This document shows positions 5,630-56,317 of a DNA stretch of 64,000 bases, piece by piece (position 1 is the stretch's first letter; each line of letters starts with the position of its first letter). The position numbers and the translations under genes are program-made. Origin of the DNA: a virus; IMG/VR virus record IMGVR_UViG_3300028734_000012, positions 64,001-128,000 of that record. One strand, 5' to 3'. Under the pieces are notes generated by a model. It did no database searches, had not been told where the DNA came from, and saw nothing but the letters and a program-made list of their open reading frames with translations.

Positions 5630-5818
5630 ATGAAATATATCCATAATCCACAAGTTGATTATGTGCTTAGATTCAAAAATAAAGATTGTTCATATTGGTC
5701 TGAACTAGCATTAATAGATATCAGTAAAATGTTTGAATGTTACAATGGATATAAAGAAAGATATGATTATGTTTATGTAATAAAAAGAACTACTACAGAG
5801 GAATTAATTAAGATGTAA
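5630..5818 (+). CDS. hypothetical protein
   Basis: ORF with AAGGAG RBS. Confidence 0.55.
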   Translation: MKYIHNPQVDYVLRFKNKDCSYWSELALIDISKMFECYNGYKERYDYVYVIKRTTTEELIKM

Positions 5819-5883
5819 CGGTTAATAAGGTAATATAATATAGCAAGGGGCGATGTCATCTGTCAGTAAATAGACAATTCTAT

Positions 5884-9825: not shown

Positions 9826-11055
9826 TTGGGAAATGACCTAAGAAATATCGTTGTTGACACAAGTTCCTTAATGGAGAATGACGGTATCCTTGATGAGTTA
9901 ATCAATGTTTACAATGTTATTATTAACATCGTAGTCGTAGAAGAACTTGACAATTTAAAAACAAACAAAGATTTTGACAGAGCATTTAAAGCCAAACGCG
10001 CTATTAGAAGTTTAGAGAAGTACAAAGATTCAGTACAATTTGATTTAGTCCGTAAAGCAGATGAAGCCTTTACTCAAAATCAATATAACCTTAACGATGA
10101 TGTTATCGTTACTTGCGCAAAACTTAATAATGCATATCTAATGACAGAAGATTTAAATCTTAGAATTAAAGCAAACGTTATCGGTGTTACATGTTCTACA
10201 AAAATAGAAACATCTAATACATATAAGGGTTTTAAAAGAGTTAAATTATCTGATGTAGAAACTGCATATTTTTATGAGCATATGAACGAGAATCAATTTG
10301 ATTCGCTTATTAATGAATACATTGTTATCACTAATAATGTCGAAGCTTTCGAAGATACATATCGTTGGGACGGAAATAAATATATACCTATTAAAACAAA
10401 GAACTTAACTACTGTTGCTTTCGGTTCAGAAATTAAACCTAAAGATGTTTACCAACGTATGGTAATTGACAGTATTCTAAATAATACAATGACTGTTATC
10501 GCAGGAGAAGCAGGAAGTGGTAAAAGTCTATTAGCATTGGTAACTGCTATGTACTTAGTTGAAAATAGAAGCAGTAAATACGAGAGAATCGTTGTACTTG
10601 CTAACCCAACTAAAACCCGTGGTGCTACAGATATGGGATTCTATACTGGTAGTGCTATGGAAAAACTTATGCAATGTTCAATCGGTAATGTCTTAAACAC
10701 TAAGTTTGGTGAACGTAATGGCATTGACCAGTTGATTGCAGGAGATAAACTTAGACTTGTTAGCATGGCTGATTGCCGTGGTATGGAAGTTAGAGATGAC
10801 GAAATCCTATATATCACAGAAGCCCAAAATACAACAGTAGATTTAATGAAATTATGTCTATCAAGAGCAAGTTCAGATTGTAAGATTATTATCGAAGGTG
10901 ATTACAATTCACAAGTAGATAGTAATATGTATGAGAATAAGAACAATGGTATGAAACGTGCTATAGAGGTATTAAAAGGCGAAGATATCTTCGGATATGT
11001 CGAACTTCAAAATGTATGGAGAAGCAAAATTGCTAATCTTGTATACAAATTCTAA
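9826..11055 (+). CDS. phoH: PIN-domain PhoH-family ATPase (PhoH2-like)
   Basis: N-terminal PIN (VVDTS, EELD, NDD, TEDLNL); Walker A GEAGSGKS; RG, EAQN and GD..Q.D motifs. Confidence 0.9.
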   Translation: MGNDLRNIVVDTSSLMENDGILDELINVYNVIINIVVVEELDNLKTNKDFDRAFKAKRAIRSLEKYKDSVQFDLVRKADEAFTQNQYNLNDDVIVTCAKLNNAYLMTEDLNLRIKANVIGVTCSTKIETSNTYKGFKRVKLSDVETAYFYEHMNENQFDSLINEYIVITNNVEAFEDTYRWDGNKYIPIKTKNLTTVAFGSEIKPKDVYQRMVIDSILNNTMTVIAGEAGSGKSLLALVTAMYLVENRSSKYERIVVLANPTKTRGATDMGFYTGSAMEKLMQCSIGNVLNTKFGERNGIDQLIAGDKLRLVSMADCRGMEVRDDEILYITEAQNTTVDLMKLCLSRASSDCKIIIEGDYNSQVDSNMYENKNNGMKRAIEVLKGEDIFGYVELQNVWRSKIANLVYKF

Positions 11056-11686: not shown

Positions 11687-12042
11687 GTGAAATTAAAGAA
11701 CAACCTATTCAGTTCTCACCAGAGGAAATGGATATGGTTCAATCCCCTAGTGATTATATCGAAGAAAACATTATCCATTTAGATACAAAGAAATTGGATA
11801 AAGCTAGATTAGATGATATTTTGTTTGCTAAAGGCATCAATTCGGTTTCAGAGTTATGTGGTGCTATCAGTGCTTTAGTTAGCGTTGGTATCTCACCACC
11901 TATGGCTATGATGTATCTATCGGAGCGTGAGGGCACTATTTTAGCAATGGAACATACTCTTAACCTTAGTAAGATAAACGCTAATGCGACCGTAGAAGCT
12001 TCTAAATTTGAAAGTATTAATCTTCAAAAAAATATGTTATAA
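11683..12042 (+). CDS. hypothetical protein
   Basis: Overlaps the clpP stop codon. Confidence 0.65.
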   Translation: MSEIKEQPIQFSPEEMDMVQSPSDYIEENIIHLDTKKLDKARLDDILFAKGINSVSELCGAISALVSVGISPPMAMMYLSEREGTILAMEHTLNLSKINANATVEASKFESINLQKNML

Positions 12043-12058
12043 TTAATTTCTAAATCAC

Positions 12059-12274
12059 TTGACAAATTAATTGGATTATACTATAATATATATAGAAACA
12101 AAAATACATATTAAAAAAAAGAATTTTTAATTAATTTAGAAAACTACTTGACAAACAATATAAATTATACTATAATATATATAGAGACCAAGTAAATAAC
12201 AAAACTTAATAAAAAAAAGAATTTTTAAAAAGTTTTAAAAATTACTTGACAAACACTACAAATTATACTATAAT
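12059..12274 (+). promoter_or_regulatory. three tandem consensus sigma-A promoters (12059-12087, 12148-12176, 12246-12274)
   Basis: Each reads TTGACA-N10-ATTATAC-TATAAT with exact 17-nt spacing, in ~90-100-bp repeated units. Confidence 0.9.
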
Positions 12275-12298
12275 ATATATAGAGAACAGAAACACTAA

Positions 12299-12353
12299 AA
12301 GATACTTACAGCTATTAACTACATAAAAATTATATTTTTTATTTAGTATCTTG
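12299..12353 (+). ncRNA. ACAGC-stem RNA copy 1
   Basis: AAGATACT-TACAGCTA...AGTATCTTG. Confidence 0.7.
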
Positions 12354-12359
12354 TTTTTT

Positions 12360-12433
12360 AAGGCACTTACAGCTAACTAATAATAGAAAGAATACATACT
12401 AAATATATATTTACTTTAATTATTAGTGCCTTG
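12360..12433 (+). ncRNA. ACAGC-stem RNA copy 2
   Basis: AAGGCACT-TACAGCTA...AGTGCCTTG. Confidence 0.7.
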
Positions 12434-12504
12434 GTAATATCGCATTTAAAAGTGAAAGCTTTTAAAAATATAAAATATTTATGAATTAAAGGGAGAAAAT
12501 CAAC

Positions 12505-12786
12505 ATGACTAGTAAAACATTTATTAAAGCAGTAGCAGATGCTACAGGTAAGACACAGAAAGACACTAAAGCATTCCTTGACGGTGTAGAGACAGTACTT
12601 AAATCAACAGTCGCATCAGCAGTTGTTGGAGAAAAAGTTAAAGTTCTTGATACTACATATACAGTTAAAGATGTATCCGCAAGAGAAGGCAGAAATCCTG
12701 CAACTGGTGAATCTATTTCAATTCCTGCAACAAAGAAAGTTGCACTTAAAGTATCTAAGGATTTCAAGGATGTAGTTAAAGCCTAA
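12505..12786 (+). CDS. hup: HU family DNA-binding protein
   Basis: AREGRNPATGESISIPA...K.SK.FKD.V motif. Confidence 0.95.
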   Translation: MTSKTFIKAVADATGKTQKDTKAFLDGVETVLKSTVASAVVGEKVKVLDTTYTVKDVSAREGRNPATGESISIPATKKVALKVSKDFKDVVKA

Positions 12787-12870
12787 TTTTAACTAAAACG
12801 GATATAATGCTTAAAATATTATAAACGCTTAGATGAAGCCGTGAGTGATGGCTTAAAATCACTCAAATAT

Positions 12871-12945
12871 ATCACTGTAATTTAACTGGTAAAATACGAA
12901 ACTGATAATTTCGATTTCTAAGTCCAAGTCTTAGCGGTGATACCA
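12871..12945 (+). tRNA. tRNA-Ile(GAT)
   Basis: Acceptor ATCACTG/CGGTGAT; anticodon arm CGAAA-CTGATAA-TTTCG; encoded CCA; T-loop slightly degenerate. Confidence 0.8.
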
Positions 12946-12948
12946 TTT

Positions 12949-12985
12949 GGGTTTGTCATATAATGGTTATTATGTGACGTGATTT
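12949..12985 (+). pseudogene. 5' half of an interrupted tRNA
   Basis: GGGTTTG acceptor strand and D-arm (ATATAATGGTTATTAT), with no adjacent 3' half. Confidence 0.5.
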
Positions 12986-12987
12986 AA

Positions 12988-13085
12988 ATAGGTTTTATAT
13001 TATAATTGCAATTATAATATAAGTAATTAATTTTATTACCACAATTAATAAAATTCCCTATAATATCTTTTATTGTGGAAAGGAT
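12988..13085 (+). ncRNA. HNH-leader three-way-junction/kissing-loop RNA, copy A
   Basis: Same length and structure as 16039-16136, with compensatory changes. Confidence 0.75.
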
Positions 13086-13092
13086 AATAATT

Positions 13093-13794
13093 ATGGATAT
13101 TAGTAAAAAGCAAATTGAAGAAACTGCAATACATTCTACTTCTTTAAGTGATTTGTTAGGAAATTTAGGTTTTACTAAAAGTGGTGCTAATACAAAAAAT
13201 TTAAATAAGTTAATTAAAGAATATAGCATTGAAACTAAATTTAATACTATAGTACATCGTATAGTAAATAATGATGACATATTTATTCAAGATAGTACTG
13301 CAAATCAATCAACTTTAAGACGTCATTATTATGAATTAACTAAAGAAAATTATCATTGTTATATTTGTGGACAAGAATCAGCATGGTTTGGAAAAGAACT
13401 TTCTTTAACATTAGACCATATTAATGGAGATAATCATGACGATAGATTTGAAAATTTAAGATGGATTTGTCCAAATTGTGATAGGCAACTTGATACTTTT
13501 AGTGGAAAAAATATTAAAAATAGAAAGTCTAAATTGTTAGATTCAAAAACGTGCAAAAGTTGTGGAAAAGAATTTATTCCTAAAAATACAATTCAAGAAT
13601 ATTGTTGTATAGAATGTGTCCATATATCTCAAAGAAAAACAATTAGACCATCTAAAGATGAGTTGTCAATATTAATTCGTAATTATACTTTTGTAGATTT
13701 AGGAAAGATGTTTGATGTTTCAGATAACACTATTAGAAAATGGTGTAAAATATATGGTTTACCATATTTAAAATCTGAAATTTTAAATACATAA
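13093..13794 (+). CDS. HNH homing endonuclease with Zn finger and C-terminal HTH
   Basis: CYICG...LTLDHINGDNHDDRFENLRWICPNCD; AAAGGA RBS before ATG 13093. Confidence 0.85.
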   Translation: MDISKKQIEETAIHSTSLSDLLGNLGFTKSGANTKNLNKLIKEYSIETKFNTIVHRIVNNDDIFIQDSTANQSTLRRHYYELTKENYHCYICGQESAWFGKELSLTLDHINGDNHDDRFENLRWICPNCDRQLDTFSGKNIKNRKSKLLDSKTCKSCGKEFIPKNTIQEYCCIECVHISQRKTIRPSKDELSILIRNYTFVDLGKMFDVSDNTIRKWCKIYGLPYLKSEILNT

Positions 13795-13801
13795 TTATTT
13801 T

Positions 13802-13876
13802 GGTTGTATAGTATAGCGATTATTACATCGGACTGTCACTCCGAAAATCAGAGTTTAACTCTCTGTATAACCGCCA
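13802..13876 (+). tRNA. tRNA-Asp(GTC)
   Basis: TCGGA-CTGTCAC-TCCGA anticodon arm; GCCA end; degenerate T-loop. Confidence 0.75.
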
Positions 13877-13880
13877 AATA

Positions 13881-13917
13881 ACAGTAAATCCGAGTTCGAT
13901 TCTCGGCATTCCCGCCA
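13881..13917 (+). pseudogene. 3' half of an interrupted tRNA
   Basis: Intact T-arm CCGAG-TTCGATT-CTCGG plus CATTCCC-GCCA, with no adjacent 5' half. Confidence 0.65.
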
Positions 13918-13952
13918 AAACCGTAAGTGATGGTTATATAATCACTTAATAA

Positions 13953-14030
13953 TACAGGGTAGAGAAGTTTGGTCATCTCATTAGGCTCATAACCTAAAAA
14001 TCGCTAGTTCGAATCTAGCCCCTGCAACCA
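13953..14030 (+). tRNA. tRNA-Met(CAT), initiator-like
   Basis: TTAGG-CTCATAA-CCTAA anticodon arm; GTTCGAATC T-loop; ACCA end. Confidence 0.8.
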
Positions 14031-14062
14031 AGGAAACCTATATCCTTTAAAGTAGGTGATAT

Positions 14063-14138
14063 ATCTGTTGGACGGTAAGGTATCGTTGTCTATCTCATAA
14101 GTAGATACAATTCGCTTCGATTGCGAAAGCAGATACCA
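14063..14138 (+). tRNA. atypical tRNA-Met/Ile2(CAT)
   Basis: ATCTGTT/AGCAGAT acceptor; TCTAT-CTCATAA-GTAGA anticodon arm; ACCA end; non-canonical D region. Confidence 0.6.
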
Positions 14139-14176
14139 GAATTTTATTTAGAATGGTGGTGTGTTATTAAACAATA

Positions 14177-14608
14177 ATGAAAAATGGTGAATACATATTA
14201 GTTGTTGCCCCAAAAAATTACGATGGTAAAAAATATAGAAATAAATATTGTTATGAACATATTTTAGTTTATTGGGAATATTATAAAATATTACCAAAGG
14301 ACAATGAAATTATACATCATATTGATGGTAATAAACATAATAATGACATATCTAATTTAAAATTAATGTCAAAATTAGAACATGATATATTACATAAAAA
14401 TAAAAGAGGAATTAAATTTGTAATGCTAAAATGTACTGGATGTGGTAAAATTTTCGAAAAAGAAAAGAGAAAAACATTTTTAATTAGTGGTGGAAAATTT
14501 ACTTGTTGTTGTCGTAAATGTATAGGTATAACCACTGGATTAAATCAAGAAGAAAAAAATAAAAGGATATCTCAAAATTTAATATATGAATTTACTAAAT
14601 ATAAATAA
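14177..14608 (+). CDS. HNH homing endonuclease
   Basis: YEH...IHHIDGNKHNNDISNL...H; C-terminal CxxC...CC..C. Confidence 0.85.
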   Translation: MKNGEYILVVAPKNYDGKKYRNKYCYEHILVYWEYYKILPKDNEIIHHIDGNKHNNDISNLKLMSKLEHDILHKNKRGIKFVMLKCTGCGKIFEKEKRKTFLISGGKFTCCCRKCIGITTGLNQEEKNKRISQNLIYEFTKYK

Positions 14609-14619
14609 ATCAATTATAT

Positions 14620-14691
14620 TCTGGTGTAACACAACGGTAGTGTAATTCCCTGTTAAGGAAAAGGCTGTTGGTTCAAGTCCAACCACCAGAG
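14620..14691 (+). tRNA. tRNA-Asn(GTT), no encoded CCA
   Basis: TCTGGTG/CACCAGA acceptor; TTCC-CTGTTAA-GGAA anticodon arm; GGTTCAAGTCC T-arm. Confidence 0.85.
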
Positions 14692-14692
14692 C

Positions 14693-14765
14693 GTTCCACA
14701 ATTTACAGTAACCTTTACGTGGTGTGGAATATCAACTATCTAAATTGATAGGCTAATAACTGTAA
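14693..14765 (+). ncRNA. HDV-like (theta) self-cleaving ribozyme 1
   Basis: P1 GTTCCAC/GTGGAAT, P2 TTACAGT/ACTGTAA, P3 ACC/GGT, L3 TTTACGT, P4 ATCAA/TTGAT, J4/2 GGCTAA. Confidence 0.75.
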
Positions 14766-14804
14766 TTATTAATAATAGGTATATAATCATAATAGAGAAA
14801 ACAT

Positions 14805-14878
14805 AGCACCATCGAATAAAAGTAATTCGCAAGGTTCTCAACCTTGTAATCTGGTGGCAGAATCCAGTGGTGTTACCA
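14805..14878 (+). tRNA. tRNA-Glu(CTC), atypical T-loop
   Basis: CAAGG-TTCTCAA-CCTTG anticodon arm; ACCA end. Confidence 0.65.
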
Positions 14879-14882
14879 ACAT

Positions 14883-14958
14883 GGCACATTAGGCAAGTGG
14901 ACTAAGCCGTCACCCTTTCACGGTGAAGACACCGTTTCAATTACGGTATGTGTCTCCA
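14883..14958 (+). tRNA. tRNA-Glu(TTC)
   Basis: TCACC-CTTTCAC-GGTGA anticodon arm; CCA end. Confidence 0.85.
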
Positions 14959-15010
14959 TAGTTCTCTTTTAGTGCTTTTCTATCTTTGCAAATAGTAAAA
15001 GCGCATTTAT

Positions 15011-15093
15011 GTCGAAGTGATGGAATGCATACATGCTAGTTTTAGAAGCTAGTGCCGAAAGGATTAGGAGTTCAAATCTCCTCTTCGACACCA
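15011..15093 (+). tRNA. tRNA-Leu(TAG)
   Basis: CTAGT-TTTAGAA-GCTAG anticodon arm; long variable arm; ACCA end. Confidence 0.85.
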
Positions 15094-15122
15094 TTGACAA
15101 TCTGGAAAGACAGATAAAATAT

Positions 15123-15197
15123 GGAAGATTAGCTTATGTGGTAAAGCAGTAGTCCGAAGAACTACGGAATCCTATTCGAACGAGGAATGTTCCACCA
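15123..15197 (+). tRNA. tRNA-Phe(GAA), atypical (C33, irregular T-arm)
   Basis: GTAGT-CCGAAGA-ACTAC anticodon arm; ACCA end. Confidence 0.6.
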
Positions 15198-15321
15198 GTT
15201 GAACAACGCAGGATACATATACGTTATAGGAGTAGGCACTAGTGCCCGCACCAAATTCTAAAAAATTAAGTAAATAGAGTGATATCCCTATCTGAAAGAT
15301 TTTTAAGTGTATCCAATATAT

Positions 15322-15396
15322 GGGGTCTGTAGTGTAATGGTAGCACGGAAAATTGTGATTTTTTAAGTAACAGTTCAATTCTGTTCATTCCCACCA
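15322..15396 (+). tRNA. tRNA-His(GTG)
   Basis: GAAAA-TTGTGAT-TTTTT anticodon arm; acceptor stem with two mismatches; CCA end. Confidence 0.7.
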
Positions 15397-15427
15397 AGCA
15401 ATAAGCACGGCTTTGTAGATGCTTTTA

Positions 15428-15486
15428 AAGACACACACAGCGATACAATAATAATAAAATATTTGCTTTTTATTAACTGTGTCTTG
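15428..15486 (+). ncRNA. ACAGC-stem RNA copy 3
   Basis: AAGACACA-CACAGCGA...TGTGTCTTG. Confidence 0.7.
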
Positions 15487-15565
15487 TTATCTAATTGGGT
15501 TCGTAACCTCAATTTCTTTGCGGCGAAGAGTTTAAATATGAGCCGAAAATAAGTTACGATTATAC

Positions 15566-15655
15566 GGAGAATAAACCAGACAGGCGAACTGGAACTGCCT
15601 TGAAAACAGATTGATGTTTAACAGCATTGGGTTTCGAGTACTCTGTTCTCCGCCA
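15566..15655 (+). tRNA. tRNA-Ser(TGA)
   Basis: GGAGAAT/GTTCTCC acceptor; CTTGAAA loop; long variable arm; GCCA end. Confidence 0.8.
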
Positions 15656-15764
15656 AATTAGTGTGAAAATGGAACAACCACGCTATCTTACCTATAGAGA
15701 GTTTAAATAAATATAGGTGTTGACCTAATTAGGGTAGTAAAACTAATTTGTTGTTCCAAAATAT

Positions 15765-15840
15765 GTACTATTAGTGTAAATGGCAAGCACTTCTGCCTTC
15801 CAAGCAGAGAATTTCGGTTCAAGTCCGAAATGGTACACCA
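15765..15840 (+). tRNA. tRNA-Gly(TCC)
   Basis: TCTGC-CTTCCAA-GCAGA anticodon arm; ACCA end. Confidence 0.85.
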
Positions 15841-15891
15841 AACCTACTTTTCTGTTGCTTGGCTGTAGATAATGTGGAACAGAATTTTTAT

Positions 15892-15963
15892 CGAGGATGA
15901 GTTGTAATGGTATGCATGTGTACCTTGGACGTATGCGGAGAGGTTCGATTCCTACATCTTCGA
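15892..15963 (+). tRNA. tRNA-Pro(TGG), degenerate, no encoded CCA
   Basis: CGAGGAT/ATCTTCG acceptor; CTTGGAC loop; GGTTCGATTCC T-arm. Confidence 0.65.
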
Positions 15964-16035
15964 GTTAGACAAGATAATATACCTCTATGTGGTGTCAAAC
16001 ATCAACTGTTATTTATAACAGGCTAAATTATTATC
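15964..16035 (+). ncRNA. HDV-like (theta) self-cleaving ribozyme 2
   Basis: P1 GTTAGAC/GTCAAAC (one mismatch), P2 GATAAT/ATTATC, P3 ACC/GGT, L3 TCTATGT, P4 CTGTTA/TAACAG, J4/2 GCTAA. Confidence 0.7.
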
Positions 16036-16038
16036 AAA

Positions 16039-16136
16039 ATAGGTTTTTATATAGTGTTGCAACATTATATAAAGTAATTAAACTAATTGCTACTATCAAT
16101 TAGTTTCCCTATTAAATCTTTTATAGTAGAAAGGAT
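16039..16136 (+). ncRNA. HNH-leader three-way-junction/kissing-loop RNA, copy B
   Basis: Structural homolog of 12988-13085. Confidence 0.75.
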
Positions 16137-16140
16137 AGAA

Positions 16141-16965
16141 ATGTTAAGTCAAGAAGAATTTGAAAAAAGAATATCTATTACATTTAATGATACGATTGAG
16201 ATTTTATCTGATTATAAGGGTAAGAGAAAAGACATAGAACTTAAATGTAAGAAATGCGGTTATCAATGGAATGTAGTTGCACAAAATGCAATGTATGGAA
16301 AACAAAGAAACTGTCCAGAATGTGAAATTGATAAAAAGAAAACAGGAGATTCTATAGTATGCGCTAATTGTGGCAAGAAAATATATAGAGTAAAGTCAAA
16401 GATGAGTAAATCAAAAAGTGGCTTGTACTTCTGTAATAGGAATTGTTCAAGTACATATTTTAATCATTCTAGTAATATAGTATCTATAAATAATTATAGA
16501 GATAAAGCTATAGATTATTATGGTGCAAAGTGTGAACTATGTGGAGACAATGAAGATATAAGATTATTAGATGTACATCATATTGATGAAAACAGATGTA
16601 ATAATGAAATTAATAATCTAATTGTTTTATGTGTTAAATGCCATGCTAAAATTACAAGAGGTATAGATAAACTTATTGATAGAACTCTGATAATAAATGA
16701 AGATAATATTGATAAAAATAACTCTGTGCATTGTAAGCCAGAAACAGTACATAAAAAATATTGTAAAATAAATTGTTATGATAAAACAGATAATCTAATA
16801 AAATCATTTAATAAAATGTCTGATGCATTAGATTGGTTAAAACAATTTTACCAAAATCCATCATCTACTCATATAATAGAATGTATCTTACATAAGAGAA
16901 AAAGTGCATATAATTATATTTGGGTTGGAGTGACTATAAATAAAAAGATACTTACAGCTATATAA
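16141..16965 (+). CDS. HNH endonuclease with Zn ribbons and C-terminal NUMOD1-like domain
   Basis: CELCG...DVHHIDENRCNNEINNLIVLCVKCH; KSAYNYIW; RBS before ATG 16141. Confidence 0.85.
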   Translation: MLSQEEFEKRISITFNDTIEILSDYKGKRKDIELKCKKCGYQWNVVAQNAMYGKQRNCPECEIDKKKTGDSIVCANCGKKIYRVKSKMSKSKSGLYFCNRNCSSTYFNHSSNIVSINNYRDKAIDYYGAKCELCGDNEDIRLLDVHHIDENRCNNEINNLIVLCVKCHAKITRGIDKLIDRTLIINEDNIDKNNSVHCKPETVHKKYCKINCYDKTDNLIKSFNKMSDALDWLKQFYQNPSSTHIIECILHKRKSAYNYIWVGVTINKKILTAI

Positions 16966-17023
16966 ATTAATGATTTAGAATATGAAATTGTATAGGAATA
17001 TTAAGCGTGTAAGCAGTATCTTG
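16945..17023 (+). ncRNA. ACAGC-stem RNA copy 4
   Basis: AAGATACT-TACAGCTA...AGTATCTTG; overlaps the last codons of the HNH gene. Confidence 0.7.
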
Positions 17024-17031
17024 TAAATGGA

Positions 17032-17101
17032 AAGGCACATACAGCTAATTTTAAAATCAAGAAGAATATTATAATTCTACTAATTTTTATTTAGTGCCTT
17101 G
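17032..17101 (+). ncRNA. ACAGC-stem RNA copy 5
   Basis: AAGGCAC-ATACAGCTA...GTGCCTTG. Confidence 0.7.
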
Positions 17102-17127
17102 TCAATAGTTTTAAGTAAAGAGGTCAT

Positions 17128-17886
17128 ATGGGAGAAAAAGAAAATAACAATTGTTCAGTGTATGTACATATTTTCCCTAATAGCAAACTATATTTTGGGA
17201 TTACTTCATTAGTACCACAAATACGATGGGGAAATAACGGAATAGGATATCAAGGTCAATGTGTATATAGTGCAATAAATAAATATGGTTGGGATAATAT
17301 TGAGCATATTATTTTATATGATAATTTGACGTTGGAACAGGCTAATAATTATGAAAAATTATTTATTAAATATTATGATACCAAAATTGATAATGGTAAT
17401 GGTTATAATGTTACAAATGGTGGTAATGGAACTTGTGGATACATATGGTCAGAAGAACAAAAATTAATTTTAAGTAAATCTCATATGGGATTAAATAATT
17501 TTATTAATAAGACTGAAAACGAAATGGAAGAAATAAATAAAAAGCGTAGTAAGTCAATAACAGAAACAATTAATTCGGAAGATTGGAAAGCAAAAAATAA
17601 AGGAATACATATAGGACATATAGTTTCTAAAGAGACAAAAGATAAAATAAGTAACTCTTTAATTGGATATAAACGTTCTGATTCTTTTAAAAAAAAATTA
17701 AGTGATATCCATAATATTCCTGTAATATGTGTATCAACAGGAGAAATATTTAAATCTACAAAAGAAGCAAGTAAGTTTTATAACTGTGATAGTTCAAATA
17801 TTACTGCATGTTGTAAAGGTAGGTTAAAAACAGCAGGTAAATTTAATGGAGTTAAGTTAGTATGGGAATATTGTACCAACATGTGA
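17128..17886 (+). CDS. GIY-YIG homing endonuclease with NUMOD3/NUMOD1 domains
   Basis: VYVH..PNSKLYFGIT, AINKYGWDN, E...I, GYN...GG, ITACCKG..KTAG. Confidence 0.8.
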   Translation: MGEKENNNCSVYVHIFPNSKLYFGITSLVPQIRWGNNGIGYQGQCVYSAINKYGWDNIEHIILYDNLTLEQANNYEKLFIKYYDTKIDNGNGYNVTNGGNGTCGYIWSEEQKLILSKSHMGLNNFINKTENEMEEINKKRSKSITETINSEDWKAKNKGIHIGHIVSKETKDKISNSLIGYKRSDSFKKKLSDIHNIPVICVSTGEIFKSTKEASKFYNCDSSNITACCKGRLKTAGKFNGVKLVWEYCTNM

Positions 17887-17986
17887 ATCATAACACATAA
17901 AAATAAAATGTGGCTAGTCGATTACTGCTTGGCTGATTGGTAGTATAGGTTATGTAGCCTTAGTTTTACTTTGACTATATAAATAT

Positions 17987-18062
17987 GGGGATATAATTCA
18001 TTTGGTAGAATATCTGCCTTGCAAGCAGAACGTGAACGGTTCAAATCCGTTTATCTCCACCA
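17987..18062 (+). tRNA. tRNA-Ala(TGC)
   Basis: GGGGATA/TATCTCC acceptor with G3:U70; TCTGC-CTTGCAA-GCAGA anticodon arm; ACCA end. Confidence 0.9.
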
Positions 18063-18159
18063 ACATATCAAGTCGGAATGGAGACATTAAACCCATATCC
18101 ATTCCAGAATAAAACTGTGAAAAATTGATGGTTATACTTCCATACAAAAAGTAATTTAT

Positions 18160-18233
18160 GGTCAATTATTTTAACGGTAGAATCTCTGTTTTGTAATCAG
18201 AAGATGCGGGTTCGATTCCTGCATTGACCTCCA
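18160..18233 (+). tRNA. tRNA-Thr(TGT)
   Basis: GGTCAAT/ATTGACC acceptor; TTTGTAA loop; CCA end. Confidence 0.8.
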
Positions 18234-18350
18234 CTTTCATTGACCTATATCTGCTTTGTTGCAAGAGTGGTGTAGAGAGAAAGCTTTAACTGTTTGTATG
18301 TATAACATGACTGCAACTATGTACTTTAGTACACAAAAACATTCGTTCAT

Positions 18351-18427
18351 ACGCTAATGGCTTAACTGGATAAAGCATCAGATTTCTAATCTGTGTATTG
18401 GGGGTTCAAGTCCCTCTTAGCGTACCA
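18351..18427 (+). tRNA. tRNA-Arg(TCT)
   Basis: ACGCTAA/TTAGCGT acceptor; CAGA-TTTCTAA-TCTG anticodon arm; ACCA end. Confidence 0.85.
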
Positions 18428-18432
18428 AATTA

Positions 18433-18488
18433 AAGATACTTACAGCTATTAAATAAAATCAAGCTTTATTGATAAAAATAGTATCTTG
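18433..18488 (+). ncRNA. ACAGC-stem RNA copy 6
   Basis: AAGATACT-TACAGCTA...AGTATCTTG. Confidence 0.7.
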
Positions 18489-18494
18489 TTATAT

Positions 18495-18568
18495 GGGGCA
18501 ATAGTCCAACGGTAGAACGTCAGCTTCCAAAACTGATTACGTGGGTTCAACTCCTACTTGCTTCGCCA
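18495..18568 (+). tRNA. tRNA-Trp(CCA)
   Basis: GGGGCAA/TTGCTTC acceptor; TTCCAAA loop; GCCA end. Confidence 0.8.
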
Positions 18569-18605
18569 AATATCTCATTGAACGTGAGTATAAAGAATGT
18601 TCATT

Positions 18606-18634
18606 AAACACCTATTTTTTATAGGTGTTTTTTT
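18606..18634 (+). terminator. intrinsic terminator ending the tRNA operon
   Basis: AAACACCTAT-loop-ATAGGTGTTT followed by a T-run. Confidence 0.85.
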
Positions 18635-18711
18635 GTTATGTAAAAATACAAAATCTATATTTTATTTATATATAAAATTAATTTATATATAGAAGAAAGA
18701 GAGGAATTAAT

Positions 18712-20304
18712 ATGGCTGAAATCCATGTAGCGCCACAAATACAGAATGATGATGGCACTTTTACTGATGTAAAAATTCAAACAGATTCAAGTCAAGTATT
18801 TAATACTGATGGCACTACAGTACAATCACATGTTGATAATTCTAGTAAACATATTACCAAATGTTCGCACGTTAAGATTGGTACTGTTCATAATTTATCA
18901 GATGATAATATAGGGACTGTAACAGGCTCTAATGTCACAATTAATGGGACTGTAAATACTAGCATTAAAAGCTTAATTATTAATGGTAGCACTACTTTAA
19001 CTGGGACTGGAATAGCTTCTCCAAATAATCTTTATACTATAACAGGAGTAGTTGCTCCAAGTATTACTATCAACGATGTGGTACGCTCTACTACTATTAT
19101 TAATGCACTTTATAGTATGAGTGATGGAGTAAAAGATACCGTAAATATTACAACAGGAATAAGAACTAATTACACTGGATTAGTTAAATTTGTTGGCAAT
19201 GAAACTTGGTCAATATATTCTACTTCTGATAATTCTACTTCTGTATGTTTTTATGTTAGTTCTTTTACAAATAGATTAGCATCAAGTACAGACGTATGTA
19301 ATGAGTTTACATATAAAACAAATCTTTTAAGTAGTACTACAACAGATGAAGGGTACTGGTTAAGTGACGTACAAGCAAATGCAACCCTTGGATATTTCCG
19401 TGTAAATAAAAGCAGATTAATTGGATGGTCTGATTCACTTTCTGATGTAAACAAAATTGCATTATTTAAAACTTGGCTTTCTTCATATAATCTTATTGTA
19501 TTATATGAATTATTAACACCAACAACTTCTACAGAAACAATTCAAGAGTTTAGAACAGCGGATACAACTACAAATGTATCTATAGATAAAGGTTCATTTA
19601 CATTAGTTTATTTTAAAGATATGTTAGGTAGTAATACGATAAGTTTTCAAACTACTGCTGATTTTACCGTTGGAGATACATGGAAAATTAATGGTTCTCA
19701 ATTAATTGCAAAAATGATTAATGGTAATGCATTATATACCAATGTATTTAAATCTGGTGGATTTATTGTAGGTAAAATTGATGGCTCTAATTTATTAATA
19801 AGTATTACTGATGGCGGTAATTCAGATACTGTAGATGGAAAACATTCAAGCGATTTTGTACCAAAGGTTATTGGTTGTACTGGTAGTTGTGATGGTTATT
19901 TTCAGACAGGAGTTTATCAAGGTATATTTACAAATTATCCACCTTCATTACCAGATGGTCAAGGAAACTTAATTGTGCATTCATATAGTACAACTTCTAC
20001 AAGTGCTGGGTGGACACAACAAGAGTTTGTATCTGCTCAAACAAGTGTTAAAAACATAAGGAAAGCAGTTAATGGTGTTTGGGAATCATGGGGAACTCAA
20101 TATTCTTCTTTAAATATTGGTACTGCAAGTGTTTTAAATGCAGATACTGTAGATGGGATACATGCCGCTGATTTAGGTGGTATGTATGTAGGAATTGTCG
20201 CCCCAACTGCTGTAACAAAAGGTTGGATAGATACTGCTAATGGCGGTATATTGAAATATTTTAATGGTACTGCTTGGGTAGCGGCTAAAGGAGTTTGGGG
20301 ATGA
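18712..20304 (+). CDS. tail-fibre / virion appendage-like protein
   Basis: Thr/Ser-rich beta character; (N/A)DTVDG.HA fibre repeats; WTQQEF...IRKAVNGVWESW knob-like segment. Confidence 0.65.
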   Translation: MAEIHVAPQIQNDDGTFTDVKIQTDSSQVFNTDGTTVQSHVDNSSKHITKCSHVKIGTVHNLSDDNIGTVTGSNVTINGTVNTSIKSLIINGSTTLTGTGIASPNNLYTITGVVAPSITINDVVRSTTIINALYSMSDGVKDTVNITTGIRTNYTGLVKFVGNETWSIYSTSDNSTSVCFYVSSFTNRLASSTDVCNEFTYKTNLLSSTTTDEGYWLSDVQANATLGYFRVNKSRLIGWSDSLSDVNKIALFKTWLSSYNLIVLYELLTPTTSTETIQEFRTADTTTNVSIDKGSFTLVYFKDMLGSNTISFQTTADFTVGDTWKINGSQLIAKMINGNALYTNVFKSGGFIVGKIDGSNLLISITDGGNSDTVDGKHSSDFVPKVIGCTGSCDGYFQTGVYQGIFTNYPPSLPDGQGNLIVHSYSTTSTSAGWTQQEFVSAQTSVKNIRKAVNGVWESWGTQYSSLNIGTASVLNADTVDGIHAADLGGMYVGIVAPTAVTKGWIDTANGGILKYFNGTAWVAAKGVWG

Positions 20305-25376: not shown

Positions 25377-26701
25377 TCATAATTTTTAGAATCGAAAGGA
25401 ATGTTTTTTTATTGAGTAAAATCGAACAAGAGAACTTTATCTTATCCCTGTATAGAGATAAGGGTTTATGCTATAGAGAGATAGCTATTAAATCAAATGA
25501 AAAATTTTCGACTGATTATTGGGATAACGAAAGAATTAGAAGCGTTATTAGAAAGTCAAGAAAAACATCTAAAATTATCCCAAATAAACCACTTAATGTT
25601 CAAGAACATTCTATGGGTTATAAAGATAGCACACAGTTAAATCAAGATGGTTCAATGGTTTCTGACCGTATTATTGAAATATGTGAAGAAGATTTAAAAA
25701 GTCCAGAGAGATTATTAGAAGCGCATAAATTTGATGCTTCTAAATGGGAATTAATTAATTGTAAAAACAATTTGTGGAATGCACCAGCAGGAAACGGATT
25801 AAAGATTGTTATGTATCAAAGTAAAATCACAGTAAAACCAAAAAAAGATTTTGCTTGGTCAGCGGATTATATTGAACAGTTATTCGATAACATAAAAATA
25901 AAGGACATTTCAAATATCAAAAAAGAACAATATGAGAAGAATGGGAAGGCTTTAATACTTCCAATTACTGATTTACATTATGCTCTTAGAAGTTATGTTG
26001 AAAGTTCTGGTAATGAATACGACGAAAATATAGCTGAAAAAATATTCTATCAAGTTGTTAACGATGTATTAGAAAGAACTAAACATCTTAAATTTGAAAA
26101 AATATACTTCACTATTGGTTCAGATATAATCAATGTAGATAACAAAATGGGCACTACAACTAAAGGCACTCCACAAGTAGAATCTATGGAAGTTGAAAAA
26201 GCAGTTATTAACGTTACTAATATGTTAATTTCTACTATTGAAAGATTAAGAAAAATCTCTAATGTTGAAGTTATACATATACCGTCTAATCATGATTACC
26301 ATGTTGCTTTCGGAATTGCAAATGCTTTGCGTGTGAAATATGATGGCTGTGAAGACGTTAATGTAGACTATGAGTGGATTGAAAGAAAATATAAGGTTTT
26401 TGGTAAAACTTTAATTGGGTTTGCGCATGATTTAAGACAAAACAATATTAATGATATTGTTAATTCCGATGCAAGACAATTATTAGGTCAAACTGAAAAT
26501 ACGGTATATCTATTGGCTCACTATCACCATGAGAGCGTTGTTGATAAAGGTGGTACTGATGTAAGAAGATTGCCAACTGTATCCGCATTAAGTAGATGGG
26601 GATACGAACAAGGATATGGCGCTGTGAGAAAGAATCAGTCATTTGTACTTGATTCTGAACACGGTATAAGCGATATCATATATACATTTATAGAAGAATA
26701 A
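25346..26701 (+). CDS. calcineurin-like metallophosphoesterase with N-terminal HTH (true start probably TTG near 25412)
   Basis: DLH, GSD, SNHD, AH and HYH motifs. Confidence 0.8.
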   Translation: MGYSYRRIGIIIIFRIERNVFLLSKIEQENFILSLYRDKGLCYREIAIKSNEKFSTDYWDNERIRSVIRKSRKTSKIIPNKPLNVQEHSMGYKDSTQLNQDGSMVSDRIIEICEEDLKSPERLLEAHKFDASKWELINCKNNLWNAPAGNGLKIVMYQSKITVKPKKDFAWSADYIEQLFDNIKIKDISNIKKEQYEKNGKALILPITDLHYALRSYVESSGNEYDENIAEKIFYQVVNDVLERTKHLKFEKIYFTIGSDIINVDNKMGTTTKGTPQVESMEVEKAVINVTNMLISTIERLRKISNVEVIHIPSNHDYHVAFGIANALRVKYDGCEDVNVDYEWIERKYKVFGKTLIGFAHDLRQNNINDIVNSDARQLLGQTENTVYLLAHYHHESVVDKGGTDVRRLPTVSALSRWGYEQGYGAVRKNQSFVLDSEHGISDIIYTFIEE

Positions 26702-26716
26702 AAAGGGGTTGGTTAG

Positions 26717-29526: not shown

Positions 29527-29547
29527 AAGTAAGAAAGGAGAGATAAT

Positions 29548-56302: not shown

Positions 56303-56317
56303 TGAAAGGAGATATTA

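What the first reader, a model, noticed from the sequence alone, without database searches (positions are those of the whole stretch)
12836..18603. Mini H-type pseudoknots between tRNAs: candidate type III toxin-antitoxin antitoxin mimics
Seen: about 26-30-nt pseudoknots next to tRNA ends. They are 12836-12864 (AAGCC/GGCTT + GAGTGAT/ATCACTC), 13919-13947 (AACC/GGTT + AAGTGAT/ATCACTT), 14030-14057 (AAGGA/TCCTT + ACCTAT/GTAGGT), 15396-15424 (AAGC/GCTT + AAGCA/TGCTT, weakest), 18128-18153 (ATGG/CCAT + TACTT/AAGTA) and 18574-18603 (CTCA/TGAG + TGAACG/TGTTCA). Most have an A-rich loop 3 and A/U-rich flanks. Known: ToxI/AbiQ/CptI antitoxins are pseudoknots of about this size, and phage-encoded pseudo-ToxI RNAs can neutralise ToxIN. 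Inference: tRNA end-processing would release these as a varied panel of anti-abortive-infection decoys. Alternatives are nuclease-blocking or processing elements.
Basis: partly seen in the sequence, partly recalled or inferred. Interest (0 to 1): 0.8.

Follow-up and report, generated by a model that had tools for sequence, protein, structure and literature searches.

The report
Conserved pseudoknot RNA beside phage tRNAs
Four of the six small RNA knots next to this phage's tRNA genes are real and non-random, and two of them belong to an uncatalogued knot family found in many unrelated phages; they look like caps that protect RNA ends made by tRNA processing, and no test supported mimicry of a bacterial antitoxin.

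Summary
All six complementarities exist at the stated coordinates. Loose 4+5 bp "pseudoknots" are common in this 31% GC phage, so they differ in weight.

- **pk1 and pk2 (12836-12865, 13919-13948):** paralogs of a sequence-conserved H-type pseudoknot, ..CC-G-UGAGUGNN-GG..(loop 3-12 nt)..NNCACUCA-A. I found about 19 instances in unrelated phage contigs (GC 30-63%). Both stems covary and no Rfam family matches.
- **pk3 and pk5:** unrelated in sequence, but with the same architecture and position.
- **Three more** lie in the phage's second tRNA array, outside the window.
- **Enrichment:** 7 of 24 tRNAs have a pseudoknot ending 2-8 nt before the RNase P site, against a 2.2% genome background (P=5e-7). 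Phage T5 and another AT-rich phage show no enrichment.
- **pk4 and pk6:** weak.

The conserved family also sits just after stop codons of abundant-protein genes (HU here, a major tail protein elsewhere).

No test supported the antitoxin-mimic reading: no tandem repeats, no ToxI model match, no bacterial counterpart of the core in 185,579 species, and usually one copy per phage. It is not excluded.

My best reading (about 0.4) is a cis-acting cap or insulator that leaves only the AUAY leader free and protects the upstream RNA's new 3' end after RNase P cleavage.

The parts
12026..12292 (+). Three tandem copies of a 98-nt unit carrying a TTGACA / extended -10 promoter-like sequence, in front of the HU gene and the tRNA array.
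   Evidence: Tandem Repeats Finder: period 98, 2.9 copies; sequence read. Promoter function is inferred.
12505..12786 (+). HU-type DNA-binding protein gene. Its stop codon lies 48-50 nt upstream of pk1, with no terminator in between.
   Evidence: Pfam PF00216, E=5e-18; PHROG 379; distance.
12836..12865 (+). pk1, a member of the conserved pseudoknot family. Layout: stem 1 AAGCC/GGCUU, loop 1 G, stem 2 UGAGUGAU/AUCACUCA, no loop 2, loop 3 AAA, then tail AAUAU before tRNA-Ile.
   Evidence: p=0.001; best + strand score in the genome. Covariance model hits of 49.9 bits. An identical 30-nt copy occurs in an unrelated GC~50% contig, L074.
12871..12945 (+). tRNA-Ile(GAU), 5 nt downstream of pk1.
   Evidence: ARAGORN; Rfam tRNA 58.4 bits.
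13877..13918 (+). Orphan tRNA 3' half (T arm plus CAUUCCC-G-CCA) that ends 2 nt before pk2.
Evidence: Sequence read.
13919..13948 (+). pk2, a paralog of pk1. Layout: AACC/GGUU, loop 1 G, UAAGUGAU/AUCACUUA (one G-C to A-U compensatory change), loop 3 AUAUA, tail AUAA before tRNA-Met.
   Evidence: p=0.002. Model hit of 46.1 bits. Pair counts.
13953..14030 (+). tRNA-Met(CAU). Its CCA end abuts pk3.
   Evidence: ARAGORN; Rfam 58.1 bits.
14030..14057 (+). pk3, unrelated in sequence to pk1 but with the same architecture. Layout: AAGGA/UCCUU, loop 1 A, ACCUAU/GUAGGU (one U-G wobble), one-nucleotide loop 2, loop 3 UAAA, tail GAUAU. It fills the 32-nt spacer between two tRNAs.
   Evidence: score -17.1, p=0.002.
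14063..14138 (+). Atypical tRNA-like gene (anticodon CAU), 5 nt downstream of pk3.
   Evidence: Called by ARAGORN only; absent from the Rfam tRNA hits.
15396..15424 (+). pk4, a weak candidate 3' of tRNA-His. Layout: AAGC/GCUU plus AAGCA/UGCUU with loops of 3, 2 and 6 nt.
   Evidence: Found only with the loose descriptor; p=0.022. It is not in the leader class and is treated as unsupported.
18128..18153 (+). pk5, the weakest member of the leader class. Layout: AUGG/CCAU, loop 1 UUA, UACUU/AAGUA, loop 3 ACAAA, tail AUUUAU before tRNA-Thr.
   Evidence: score -11.7, p=0.025. Its position and architecture match the class.
18160..18233 (+). tRNA-Thr(UGU), 6 nt downstream of pk5.
   Evidence: ARAGORN; Rfam 58.1 bits.
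18574..18603 (+). pk6, a 6-7 bp hairpin (UGAACG(U)/(A)UGUUCA) with a possible 3-4 bp second helix. It lies 5 nt after the last tRNA (Trp) and just before the terminator-like hairpin.
   Evidence: p=0.005 against shuffles, most of it from the hairpin. The pseudoknot itself is unsupported.
18606..18646 (+). Terminator-like hairpin with a U-run that closes the tRNA operon.
   Evidence: Sequence read; picked up as AAACACC/GGUGUUU followed by a T-run.

Best explanation
pk1, pk2, pk3 and pk5, plus three more in the phage's other tRNA array, are real H-type RNA pseudoknots in the spacer RNA of heavily transcribed polycistronic units such as HU-tRNA.

**Architecture.** Stem 1 has 3-7 bp, loop 1 is usually a single purine, stem 2 has 5-9 bp, there is usually no loop 2, and loop 3 is 3-5 nt. 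Stem 2 ends 4-8 nt before tRNA position +1. That leaves single-stranded only the short AUAY leader shared by nearly all tRNAs of this phage, which I infer is what RNase P uses.

**Proposed mechanism (inferred, not shown).** The knot folds the spacer on itself so that it cannot mispair with the nascent tRNA. RNase P then cuts at +1. The upstream product (HU mRNA, spacer RNA, or in other phages a major-tail-protein mRNA) is left with a compact knot and a 3' overhang too short for 3'-to-5' exonucleases to engage. The logic is the same as the MALAT1 triple helix next to the RNase P-cleaved mascRNA.

**The conserved subfamily.** pk1 and pk2 belong to a sequence-conserved family (CC-G-UGAGUGNN-GG...NNCACUCA-A) spread across unrelated phages. 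Its invariant stem-2 end, loop-1 G and 3' A imply either a special tertiary fold or a conserved binding partner that I could not identify.

pk4 and pk6 are probably not pseudoknots.
For: **Position and enrichment**
- 7 of 24 tRNAs have a pseudoknot ending 2-8 nt upstream, against 2.2% of genome positions (P=5e-7). At the stricter score it is 5 of 24 against 0.32% (P=1.4e-8).
- T5 and L128 show no enrichment with the same script.
- Leader positions -4 to -1 read AUAU, AUAC, ACAU or UUAU in most tRNAs of this phage.
- 16 of 24 leaders have some nested structure ending 3-9 nt upstream, against 152 of 400 random positions.

**Structure**
- On 18 family members, every one of 198 cells pairs. The stem-1 third pair was constrained by no search pattern or filter, and it pairs in 18 of 18 with five pair types (GC 13, UA 2, AU 1, CG 1, GU 1).
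- The stem-2 distal pair shows UA 9, GC 6, CG 3. The covariation score is 0.280 against 0.103 in shuffles (0 of 500 reach it) and at most 0.09 with slid partners.
- The paralogous knots before tRNA-Ser(GCU) and the CUA suppressor keep stem 1 (CAGU/ACUG), while four of six stem-2 pairs change and all still pair.
- G-U pairs, and the fact that the knot points the same way as the neighbouring tRNAs and ORFs wherever I checked, put the element on the transcribed strand.

**Location at the 3' side of expressed units**
- pk1 lies 48 nt after the HU stop codon, with no terminator before tRNA-Ile.
- Family members lie 3-7 nt after the stop codons of a major tail protein gene (L197), a Lys/Ala-rich ORF followed by tRNA-Met (L203) and a structural-looking ORF (L074).
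- One member is followed directly by an intrinsic terminator (L154).
- Eight lineages have a tRNA (in L190 an unconfirmed tRNA-like sequence) 2-9 nt downstream.

**From general knowledge, not tested here**
- RNase II, PNPase and RNase R need roughly 6-10 nt of single-stranded 3' tail.
- The MALAT1 3' end is made by RNase P at mascRNA and protected by an adjacent triple helix.
Against: - No RNA ends were observed.
- A purely structural cap would not need the strict sequence conservation seen in stem 2 of the pk1 family across hosts of 30-63% GC.
- pk3 lies directly between two tRNAs and starts at A76 of the upstream one. There a stable knot would hinder exonucleolytic 3' trimming of that tRNA rather than help it.
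- The pk1 family is present once per whole phage record in four of five searched, even where the locus around it holds 17-27 tRNAs. It is therefore not a general requirement of tRNA processing.
- In one group of phages it is embedded in the middle of a larger non-coding RNA.
- Leader pseudoknots are absent from T5 and L128, so the class is not general.
- The knot before tRNA-Lys(UUU) has a competing longer plain hairpin.
Confidence: 0.4

Rival explanations
1. Trans-acting decoy. RNase P and 3' processing, or a terminator, release the pk1-type knot as an autonomous RNA of about 35-45 nt. It binds and neutralises a widespread host RNA-binding nuclease, for example a CptN-, ToxN- or TenpN-type toxin.
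For: - pk1/pk2 share their architecture with CptI: H-type, a single G as loop 1, coaxial stems and an often A-rich loop 3. One CptI repeat alone is antitoxic (PMC4627078).
- Strict sequence conservation with patchy spread across unrelated phages is what a counter-defence RNA fitted to one protein would show. That includes an identical 30-mer in a 31% GC and a ~50% GC phage.
- The usual single copy per phage record, and the invariant single-stranded A after stem 2, fit a defined processed end.
- Phage pseudo-ToxI is an established precedent (PMC5086642).
Against: - The ToxI covariance model gives no hit on any pseudoknot.
- There are no tandem repeats.
- The exact-core scan of 185,579 species genomes found no pseudoknot-type bacterial copy next to a toxin. 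The only tandem array, in Salinicoccus (L089), lies between a SNF2 helicase gene and a DUF2207 gene.
- No conserved 5' boundary or cleavage motif lies upstream of stem 1.
- Several copies sit immediately after ORF stop codons within late operons.
- pk3, pk5 and the knots of the second array share no sequence with anything found here.
- CptI, TenpI and antiQ sequences could not be obtained for comparison.
Confidence: 0.1
2. Sequence-specific cis-regulatory element acting on a conserved machine. Candidates are a modulator of RNase P access to the neighbouring tRNA, an RNA-polymerase-directed pause or antitermination signal placed once per operon, or an operator for an RNA-binding protein (as the T4 gene 32 leader pseudoknot is for gp32).
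For: - The stem-2 end, the loop-1 G and the 3' A are invariant across phages of very different hosts, which argues for a universal partner.
- BLASTP comparison of open reading frames from four whole phage records that carry the knot found no protein shared by all four, so any partner would be host-encoded.
- It occurs once per operon or record in most cases.
- In some phages the knot ends only 2-4 nt from tRNA +1 (L002, L167, L201, L190), close enough to affect RNase P.
- The geometry (1-nt loop 1 over a 7-8 bp stem 2) is that of the T2/T4 gene 32 pseudoknot. This is recalled from the literature and is only a lead.
Against: - No partner was identified.
- The spacing to the tRNA varies from 2 to 10 nt, and some copies have no tRNA nearby.
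- The sequence-unrelated knots (pk3, pk5 and those of the second array) occupy the same position, which argues that structure rather than sequence matters at that position.
Confidence: 0.2
3. Folding insulators only. The knots keep AT-rich spacer RNA from mispairing with the 5' acceptor strand of the nascent tRNA, and they have no role in the stability of the upstream RNA.
For: - Two thirds of this phage's tRNA leaders carry some self-contained structure that ends 3-9 nt upstream, against 38% of random positions.
- Different sequences serve at different tRNAs.
- This reading explains pk3, which sits between two tRNAs.
Against: - It does not explain the copies that lie after ORFs with no tRNA nearby (L074, L197), the copy before a terminator (L154), or the sequence conservation of the pk1 family.
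- T5 and L128 manage without such knots.
Confidence: 0.15
4. Chance complementarity or plain hairpins. This applies to pk4 and pk6, and possibly to pk5 and the knot before tRNA-Lys.
For: - The loose descriptor finds 37 candidates in 5.9 kb, including inside ORFs.
- pk4 needs loops of 3/2/6 nt and has p=0.022. pk6 is a hairpin plus 3-4 bp. pk5 has p=0.025.
- In the L044-L053 phages, apparent leader pseudoknots turned out on inspection of their sequences to be ordinary UUCG-loop terminators.
- The tRNA-Lys knot competes with a longer hairpin.
Against: It cannot explain pk1, pk2 or pk3, the covarying Ser/suppressor pair, or the genome-wide positional enrichment.
Confidence: 0.12

Closest known systems
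Type III antitoxin RNAs (ToxI, Rfam RF02519; CptI of Eubacterium rectale)
   Same: - Small H-type pseudoknots of about 30-45 nt.
- CptI has a single-G loop 1, two coaxial stems and an A-rich loop in the stem-1 minor groove, and one repeat is active (PMC4627078).
- Phage-borne mimics are known (PMC5086642).
   Different: - No tandem repeats, no terminator-plus-toxin arrangement and no ToxI model match.
- The core is absent from bacterial genomes as a pseudoknot.
- The knots sit in front of tRNAs or just after ORF stop codons.
- The sequence comparison with CptI, TenpI and antiQ could not be done.
MALAT1 / MEN-beta 3' triple helix next to the RNase P-cleaved tRNA-like mascRNA (from general knowledge)
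   Same: A compact structure with A-rich elements lies immediately upstream of an RNase P site. Cleavage creates the 3' end of the upstream RNA and the structure would protect it.
   Different: - That system is a eukaryotic nuclear long non-coding RNA, with a U-A-U triple helix formed with a genomically encoded A-tract.
- Here the structure is an H-type pseudoknot in a phage operon followed by a real tRNA.
- Protection has not been shown here.
Theta / HDV-like ribozymes flanking phage tRNAs (Kienbeck et al. 2024, PMC10879173)
   Same: - Small pseudoknotted RNA modules that abut phage tRNA genes and define RNA ends.
- Two HDV-like candidates lie in this same array, at 14693-14767 and 15964-16033.
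   Different: - Ribozymes sit 3' of CCA-less tRNAs and have P3, P1.1 and a catalytic C.
- The knots here sit 5' of tRNAs, have no room for P3, and in pk1, pk2 and pk3 have no C in the loop that corresponds to J4/2.
Autoregulatory pseudoknot of the T2/T4 gene 32 mRNA leader (from general knowledge)
   Same: The same geometry: a stem 1 of about 5 bp, a single-purine loop 1 spanning a 7-bp stem 2, no loop 2, and an A/U-rich unstructured tail downstream.
   Different: - That knot nucleates gp32 binding to repress translation of its own gene.
- Here there is no SSB gene downstream, and the usual neighbour is a tRNA.
Upstream pseudoknot domain of plant-virus 3' UTRs in front of the tRNA-like structure (BMV3_UPD-PK1, RF01108)
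   Same: An H-type pseudoknot directly upstream of a tRNA-shaped RNA. It is the only Rfam model that gives even a weak score on pk1 (15 bits, E=0.35).
   Different: The score is far below the gathering threshold of 38 bits. That system is a eukaryotic RNA virus element with a role in translation and replication. This is an analogy only.
Stable small RNAs of unknown function in the phage T5 tRNA region
   Same: A tRNA array interspersed with HNH endonuclease genes and annotated stable non-tRNA RNAs.
   Different: T5 shows no leader-pseudoknot enrichment and lacks the conserved motif.

Membership tests
Type III toxin-antitoxin antitoxin RNA (ToxI / CptI / TenpI / antiQ) or a phage pseudo-antitoxin | Tandem direct repeats of 31-62 nt, about 1.9-5.6 copies (PMC3401426). 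| tested here: not met
   Tandem Repeats Finder on 12000-19000 finds only the 98-nt promoter repeat and trivial A/T repeats. The pk1-type model finds one copy per whole phage record in four of five searched, and two non-adjacent copies here.
Type III toxin-antitoxin antitoxin RNA (ToxI / CptI / TenpI / antiQ) or a phage pseudo-antitoxin | Sequence and structure similarity to a known antitoxin repeat. | tested here: inconclusive
   For ToxI the feature is not met: the RF02519 search of the whole phage gives 12 hits of at most 14.1 bits (gathering score 50), none on a pseudoknot, and no Rfam family matches. CptI, TenpI and antiQ sequences were not obtainable. Only the published description of the CptI architecture could be compared, and it resembles pk1.
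Type III toxin-antitoxin antitoxin RNA (ToxI / CptI / TenpI / antiQ) or a phage pseudo-antitoxin | A cognate bacterial locus with repeats, a terminator and an endoribonuclease toxin that carries the same RNA core. | tested here: not met
   The exact-core scan of 185,579 species genomes gave 7 hits, none of them a CC-G...GG pseudoknot next to a toxin. The Salinicoccus 12 x 41-nt array lies between SNF2 and DUF2207 genes. The phage has no ToxN. The scan needed an exact core, so diverged originals would be missed.
Type III toxin-antitoxin antitoxin RNA (ToxI / CptI / TenpI / antiQ) or a phage pseudo-antitoxin | An H-type pseudoknot fold. | tested here: met
   Both helices are supported by covariation for pk1 and pk2. 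The tails were not examined as such.
Type III toxin-antitoxin antitoxin RNA (ToxI / CptI / TenpI / antiQ) or a phage pseudo-antitoxin | Neutralises the toxin. | not testable with these tools
   This needs co-expression assays.
HDV-like / theta ribozyme | A nested double pseudoknot with P1, P2, P3/L3 and P1.1, and a catalytic C at the start of J4/2. | tested here: not met
   In pk1-pk3 stem 2 runs directly, or after 1 nt, into the 3' strand of stem 1, so there is no room for P3. Loop 3 (AAA, AUAUA, UAAA) has no C. Rfam HDV models hit only 14693-14767 and 15964-16033.
New family proposed here: pk1-type phage pseudoknot | The core CC-G-UGAGUGNN-GG...NNCACUCA-A, with stem 1 of at least 3 bp and stem 2 of 7-8 bp, both covarying. 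| tested here: met
   pk1 and pk2 score 49.9 and 46.1 bits with model R1. The 18-sequence alignment A4 pairs in 198 of 198 cells, with 4 pairs changed on both sides. Caveat: members were collected with patterns that fix most core positions, and they were filtered for pairing of the three distal stem-2 pairs.
New family proposed here: pk1-type phage pseudoknot | Lies on the transcribed strand in intergenic RNA, typically 2-10 nt 5' of a tRNA or just 3' of an ORF. | tested here: met
   A tRNA lies within 10 nt downstream in the window (twice) and in L002, L029, L148, L167, L201 and L203b; L190 has an unconfirmed tRNA-like sequence. An ORF stop lies 3-48 nt upstream in the window and in L074, L197 and L203b.

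The most novel reading that the evidence does not exclude
The pk1-type knot is an autonomous, sequence-specific RNA device that phages pass among themselves, in one of two forms.

- **Exonuclease block:** a bacterial-world counterpart of exoribonuclease-resistant RNAs that blocks 3'-to-5' exonucleases and borrows RNase P 'punctuation' at tRNAs to create its own end.
- **Decoy:** a CptI-like RNA released by tRNA processing that disarms a widespread host RNA-binding nuclease.

The probability given here is for that version.
Probability: 0.1. Interest if true: 0.85.

Novelty: new variant of a known kind. Interest (0 to 1): 0.6.

Why it matters
Phage tRNA arrays are now seen as counter-defence and recoding devices, but the RNA between the tRNAs is almost unexplored.

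This work defines a compact pseudoknot motif of about 30 nt with these properties:
- it matches no family in Rfam 15;
- it is conserved in sequence across phages whose hosts range from 30% to 63% GC;
- it sits at one RNase-P-leader distance from tRNAs, or right behind genes for abundant proteins.

If it caps 3' ends made by RNase P, it would extend the eukaryotic MALAT1-mascRNA logic to phages. It would also offer a very small, portable RNA-stabilising part.

If instead it binds a conserved host factor or a defence nuclease, it would be a new class of phage RNA effector.

Either way the motif is short, has clear compensatory-mutation predictions, and can be tested directly in vitro.

Tried and rejected
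- **Close relatives of this phage.** I looked for them to test conservation of pk3-pk6, using the 530-aa protein downstream, the large terminase, the HU protein and a tRNA-Met anchor. None was found, only phages with about 45% HU identity and one unrelated phage sharing a tRNA end. BLAST against 50,697 cultured phage records gave only HNH-gene and chance hits. pk3, pk5, pk4 and pk6 therefore have no comparative data.
- **Apparent leader pseudoknots in the L044-L053 phages.** They were enriched, but on inspection of their sequences they are plain 11-bp UUCG-loop terminator hairpins. I rejected them.
- **Known RNA classes.** I compared the sequence by eye with recalled consensus features of HDV-like, hammerhead, pistol and preQ1-I or other riboswitch pseudoknots. 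There is no room for P3, no catalytic C and no loop 2 for a ligand pocket. No Rfam match supported any of them. The CUGAUGA...GAAAC stretch downstream of the knot in L014-type contigs does not fit a hammerhead and has no Rfam hit.
- **A DNA operator for a dimeric protein.** Rejected because the spacing between the arms varies from 8 to 15 nt (up to 17 in the pair-count table), stem 1 covaries, G-U pairs occur, and the element keeps one strand orientation.
- **A shared partner protein.** BLASTP comparison of open reading frames from four whole knot-bearing phage records found no protein common to all four.
- **The Salinicoccus tandem array (L089).** It looked like a possible type III locus but has no toxin gene.
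- **Supplementary tables of antitoxin repeats.** None are held for PMC3401426.

Full report
**Context**

The window is bases 64001-128000 of a 176,332-bp, 30.6% GC IMG/VR phage record. Three tandem promoter-like 98-nt units (12026-12292) precede an HU gene (12505-12786). After that comes an array of 13 ARAGORN tRNAs (12871-18568) plus two further Rfam-only tRNA-like genes. HNH and GIY-YIG-type ORFs are interspersed. A second array of 9 tRNAs, including a CUA suppressor, lies at G000 5727-7346 on the minus strand.

**Observation**

Such complementarity is cheap here: a loose descriptor returns 37 non-overlapping "pseudoknots" in 5.9 kb, many of them inside ORFs.

I scored candidates by summed Turner stacking energies and used three nulls.

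- **Dinucleotide shuffles of each 42-47-nt flank, 1000 each.** pk1 p=0.001, pk2 0.002, pk3 0.002, pk6 0.005, pk4 0.022, pk5 0.025. This null also destroys plain hairpins, which flatters pk6.
- **The real genome, both strands.** A pseudoknot of score -15 or better ending 2-8 nt upstream occurs at 0.32% of positions but at 5 of 24 tRNAs (P=1.4e-8). At -11 or better it is 2.2% against 7 of 24 (P=5e-7). pk1 is the top-scoring pseudoknot on the + strand of the whole genome.
- **Other phages.** T5 gives 1 of 23 at a 4.7% background (P=0.67). The AT-rich locus L128 gives no real case. L002 and L067 give one or two each.

The seven positives are pk1, pk2, pk3 and pk5, plus three in the second array. 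Those three lie before tRNA-Ser(GCU), the CUA suppressor and tRNA-Lys(UUU).

They share one architecture:
- stem 1 of 4-7 bp;
- loop 1 usually a single purine;
- stem 2 of 5-9 bp;
- usually no loop 2;
- loop 3 of 3-5 nt;
- a 4-8-nt A/U-rich tail that ends in the AUAY consensus shared by nearly all leaders of this phage.

The Ser and suppressor knots are paralogs. Stem 1 and the tail are conserved, while four of the six stem-2 pairs changed and all still pair. pk4 and pk6 lie 3' of tRNAs and are not supported beyond chance or a hairpin.

**A conserved family**

pk1 and pk2 are paralogs. Pattern scans of IMG/VR, JGI metagenomes and GTDB genomes and covariance-model searches recovered about 19 instances, at least 13 of them distinct sequences, in contigs of 30-63% GC.

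The consensus is (N)RGCC-G-UGAGUG-NN-GGCY-(loop 3 of 3-12 nt)-NN-CACUCA-A.

On an 18-sequence alignment, all 198 cells pair:
- The stem-1 third pair was never constrained by a pattern or a filter. It pairs in 18 of 18 with five pair types.
- The two distal stem-2 pairs show UA, GC and CG, and AU, GU and GC.
- The covariation score is 0.280, against 0.103 for shuffles (0 of 500 reach it) and at most 0.09 for slid partners.

Caveats: most core positions were fixed by the search patterns, and members from the last scan were kept only if the three free stem-2 pairs were complementary. By chance I would expect about 5% of the roughly 68 new loci to pass, and 10 passed. Nine of those ten also have stem 1, and most lie in tRNA arrays.

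G-U pairs, and an orientation that matched the flanking tRNAs and ORFs wherever I checked, put the element on the RNA strand.

It matches no Rfam 15 family. The only score is 15 bits to a plant-virus upstream pseudoknot. It was not found among 50,697 cultured-phage records.

An identical 30-mer occurs in this 31% GC phage and in a ~50% GC contig.

**Where the family sits**

- *Just upstream of a tRNA, by 2-10 nt:* this window (Ile, Met), L002 (Pro), L029 (Met), L148 (Trp), L167 and L201 (Arg), and L203b (Met); in L190 an unconfirmed tRNA-like sequence follows.
- *Elsewhere inside tRNA arrays:* L191, L206, L203a and L003.
- *Directly after ORF stop codons:* HU here (48 nt), a major tail protein in L197 (3 nt), a Lys/Ala-rich ORF in L203b (7 nt) and a structural-looking ORF in L074 (5 nt).
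- *Before an intrinsic terminator:* L154.
- *Inside a larger non-coding RNA:* L014-type contigs.

Four of the five whole phage records searched hold one copy, and this one holds two. BLASTP comparison of open reading frames from four whole knot-bearing records found no protein shared by all four.

**The antitoxin-mimic reading**

Features that define type III antitoxins were tested where possible.
- No tandem repeats.
- No ToxI model match on any knot.
- No ToxN in the phage.
- No pseudoknot-type bacterial copy of the core in 185,579 species genomes.
- The one tandem array that shares the core, in Salinicoccus (12 x 41 nt), lies between a SNF2 helicase gene and a DUF2207 gene.

Against dismissing the idea outright: CptI is described as an H-type knot with a single-G loop 1, coaxial stems and an A-rich loop, and one repeat suffices for antitoxicity. 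The patchy, sequence-conserved spread of the pk1 family is also what a counter-defence RNA would show. I could not obtain CptI, TenpI or antiQ sequences. I put this reading at about 0.1.

**Best explanation (confidence about 0.4; the mechanism is inferred)**

The knots are cis-acting modules that fold the spacer right up to the minimal RNase P leader. After RNase P cuts at tRNA +1, the upstream RNA ends in a compact knot with a 2-8-nt overhang.

From general knowledge, that overhang is too short for RNase II, PNPase or RNase R to engage. The logic is the same as MALAT1 with mascRNA.

This fits:
- the fixed distance to +1;
- the placement behind genes for abundant proteins and inside highly transcribed arrays;
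- the copy that lies in front of a terminator;
- the use of unrelated sequences at different tRNAs.

It does not explain:
- the strict sequence conservation of the stem-2 end, the loop-1 G and the 3' A in the pk1 family, which suggests a special tertiary fold or a conserved host partner;
- pk3, which is wedged against the CCA end of an upstream tRNA.

Rival readings are a sequence-specific regulatory element (0.2), pure folding insulators (0.15), the decoy (0.1), and chance for pk4 and pk6.

**Novelty and earlier notes**

I found no description of this motif in Rfam or in the papers searched. Earlier notes of this scan describe other, different pseudoknot modules near phage tRNAs. Notes on this genome independently flag the HDV-like ribozymes, the ACAGC repeat and the split tRNA.

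Noticed in passing
window 14693-14767 and 15964-16033 (+): Two HDV-like ribozyme candidates (RF02682, 39.4 and 34.2 bits, below the gathering score of 44). Each starts immediately after a tRNA that lacks an encoded CCA: tRNA-Asn 14620-14692 and the tRNA-like gene 15893-15962. For the first, P1 (with a G-U first pair), P2, P3 and a candidate catalytic C in J4/2 are all readable. This matches the published theta-ribozyme context (PMC10879173).
   Followed up: partly
window 12304, 12365, 16950, 17037, 18438 (+): Five same-strand copies of the motif AC(U/A)UACAGCUA, against 0.39 expected by chance. By my reading of the sequence, each sits inside a long-range hairpin whose closing stem covaries (GAUACU/AGUAUC against GGCAC/GUGCC). 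They flank the HU gene, the HNH and GIY-YIG ORFs and tRNA-Trp. This looks like another uncatalogued RNA element.
   Followed up: partly
window 12026-12292 (+): Three tandem 98-nt copies of a strong promoter-like unit (TTGACAAAC ... TATACTATAAT) upstream of the HU gene and the tRNA operon.
   Followed up: no
window 13877-13918 (+), with 12946-12975: An orphan tRNA 3' half (T arm plus CAUUCCC-G-CCA) resembling tRNA-His.
   Followed up: partly
window 5884-8661 and 9826-11055 (+): A 925-aa protein matching the two-barrel 'RdRP' family PF05183, possibly a YonO-like phage RNA polymerase, and a PIN-PhoH fusion that may be an RNA helicase/nuclease. Both lie just upstream of the tRNA operon.
   Followed up: no
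G000 6145-6237 (-), outside the window: A CUA (amber) suppressor tRNA with a long variable arm. Its 5' sequence and its leader knot closely resemble those of the neighbouring tRNA-Ser(GCU), suggesting a paralog. It hints at UAG recoding, possibly to Ser, as in the phages that carry theta ribozymes.
   Followed up: no
G000 55311-56528, 25821-29641 and 172389-172805, outside the window: A PurA/PurZ-like adenylosuccinate synthetase, a NAMPT plus PRPP-synthetase pair, and a NADAR-domain protein. Each is shared with the unrelated 172-kb phage G001 at 29-34% identity. They are candidate nucleotide-modification or NAD-rescue genes.
   Followed up: partly
L089 3097-3581 (Salinicoccus halitifaciens contig): Twelve tandem 41-nt units, each able to form a CCC-AG-UGAGYGAU-GGG...AUCRCUCA knot-like fold, with stem-2 covariation between two unit types. 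The array is followed by a terminator and lies between a SNF2 helicase gene and a convergent DUF2207 gene. No toxin gene is present.
   Followed up: partly
L014 / L025 / L040 / L042 / L134 / L137 (about 150 nt either side of the knot): In this group of ~38% GC phage contigs the conserved knot is embedded in a roughly 300-350-nt non-coding RNA with hairpins that appear to covary upstream, a three-way-junction-like domain downstream and its own terminator. L040 has no Rfam hit.
   Followed up: partly
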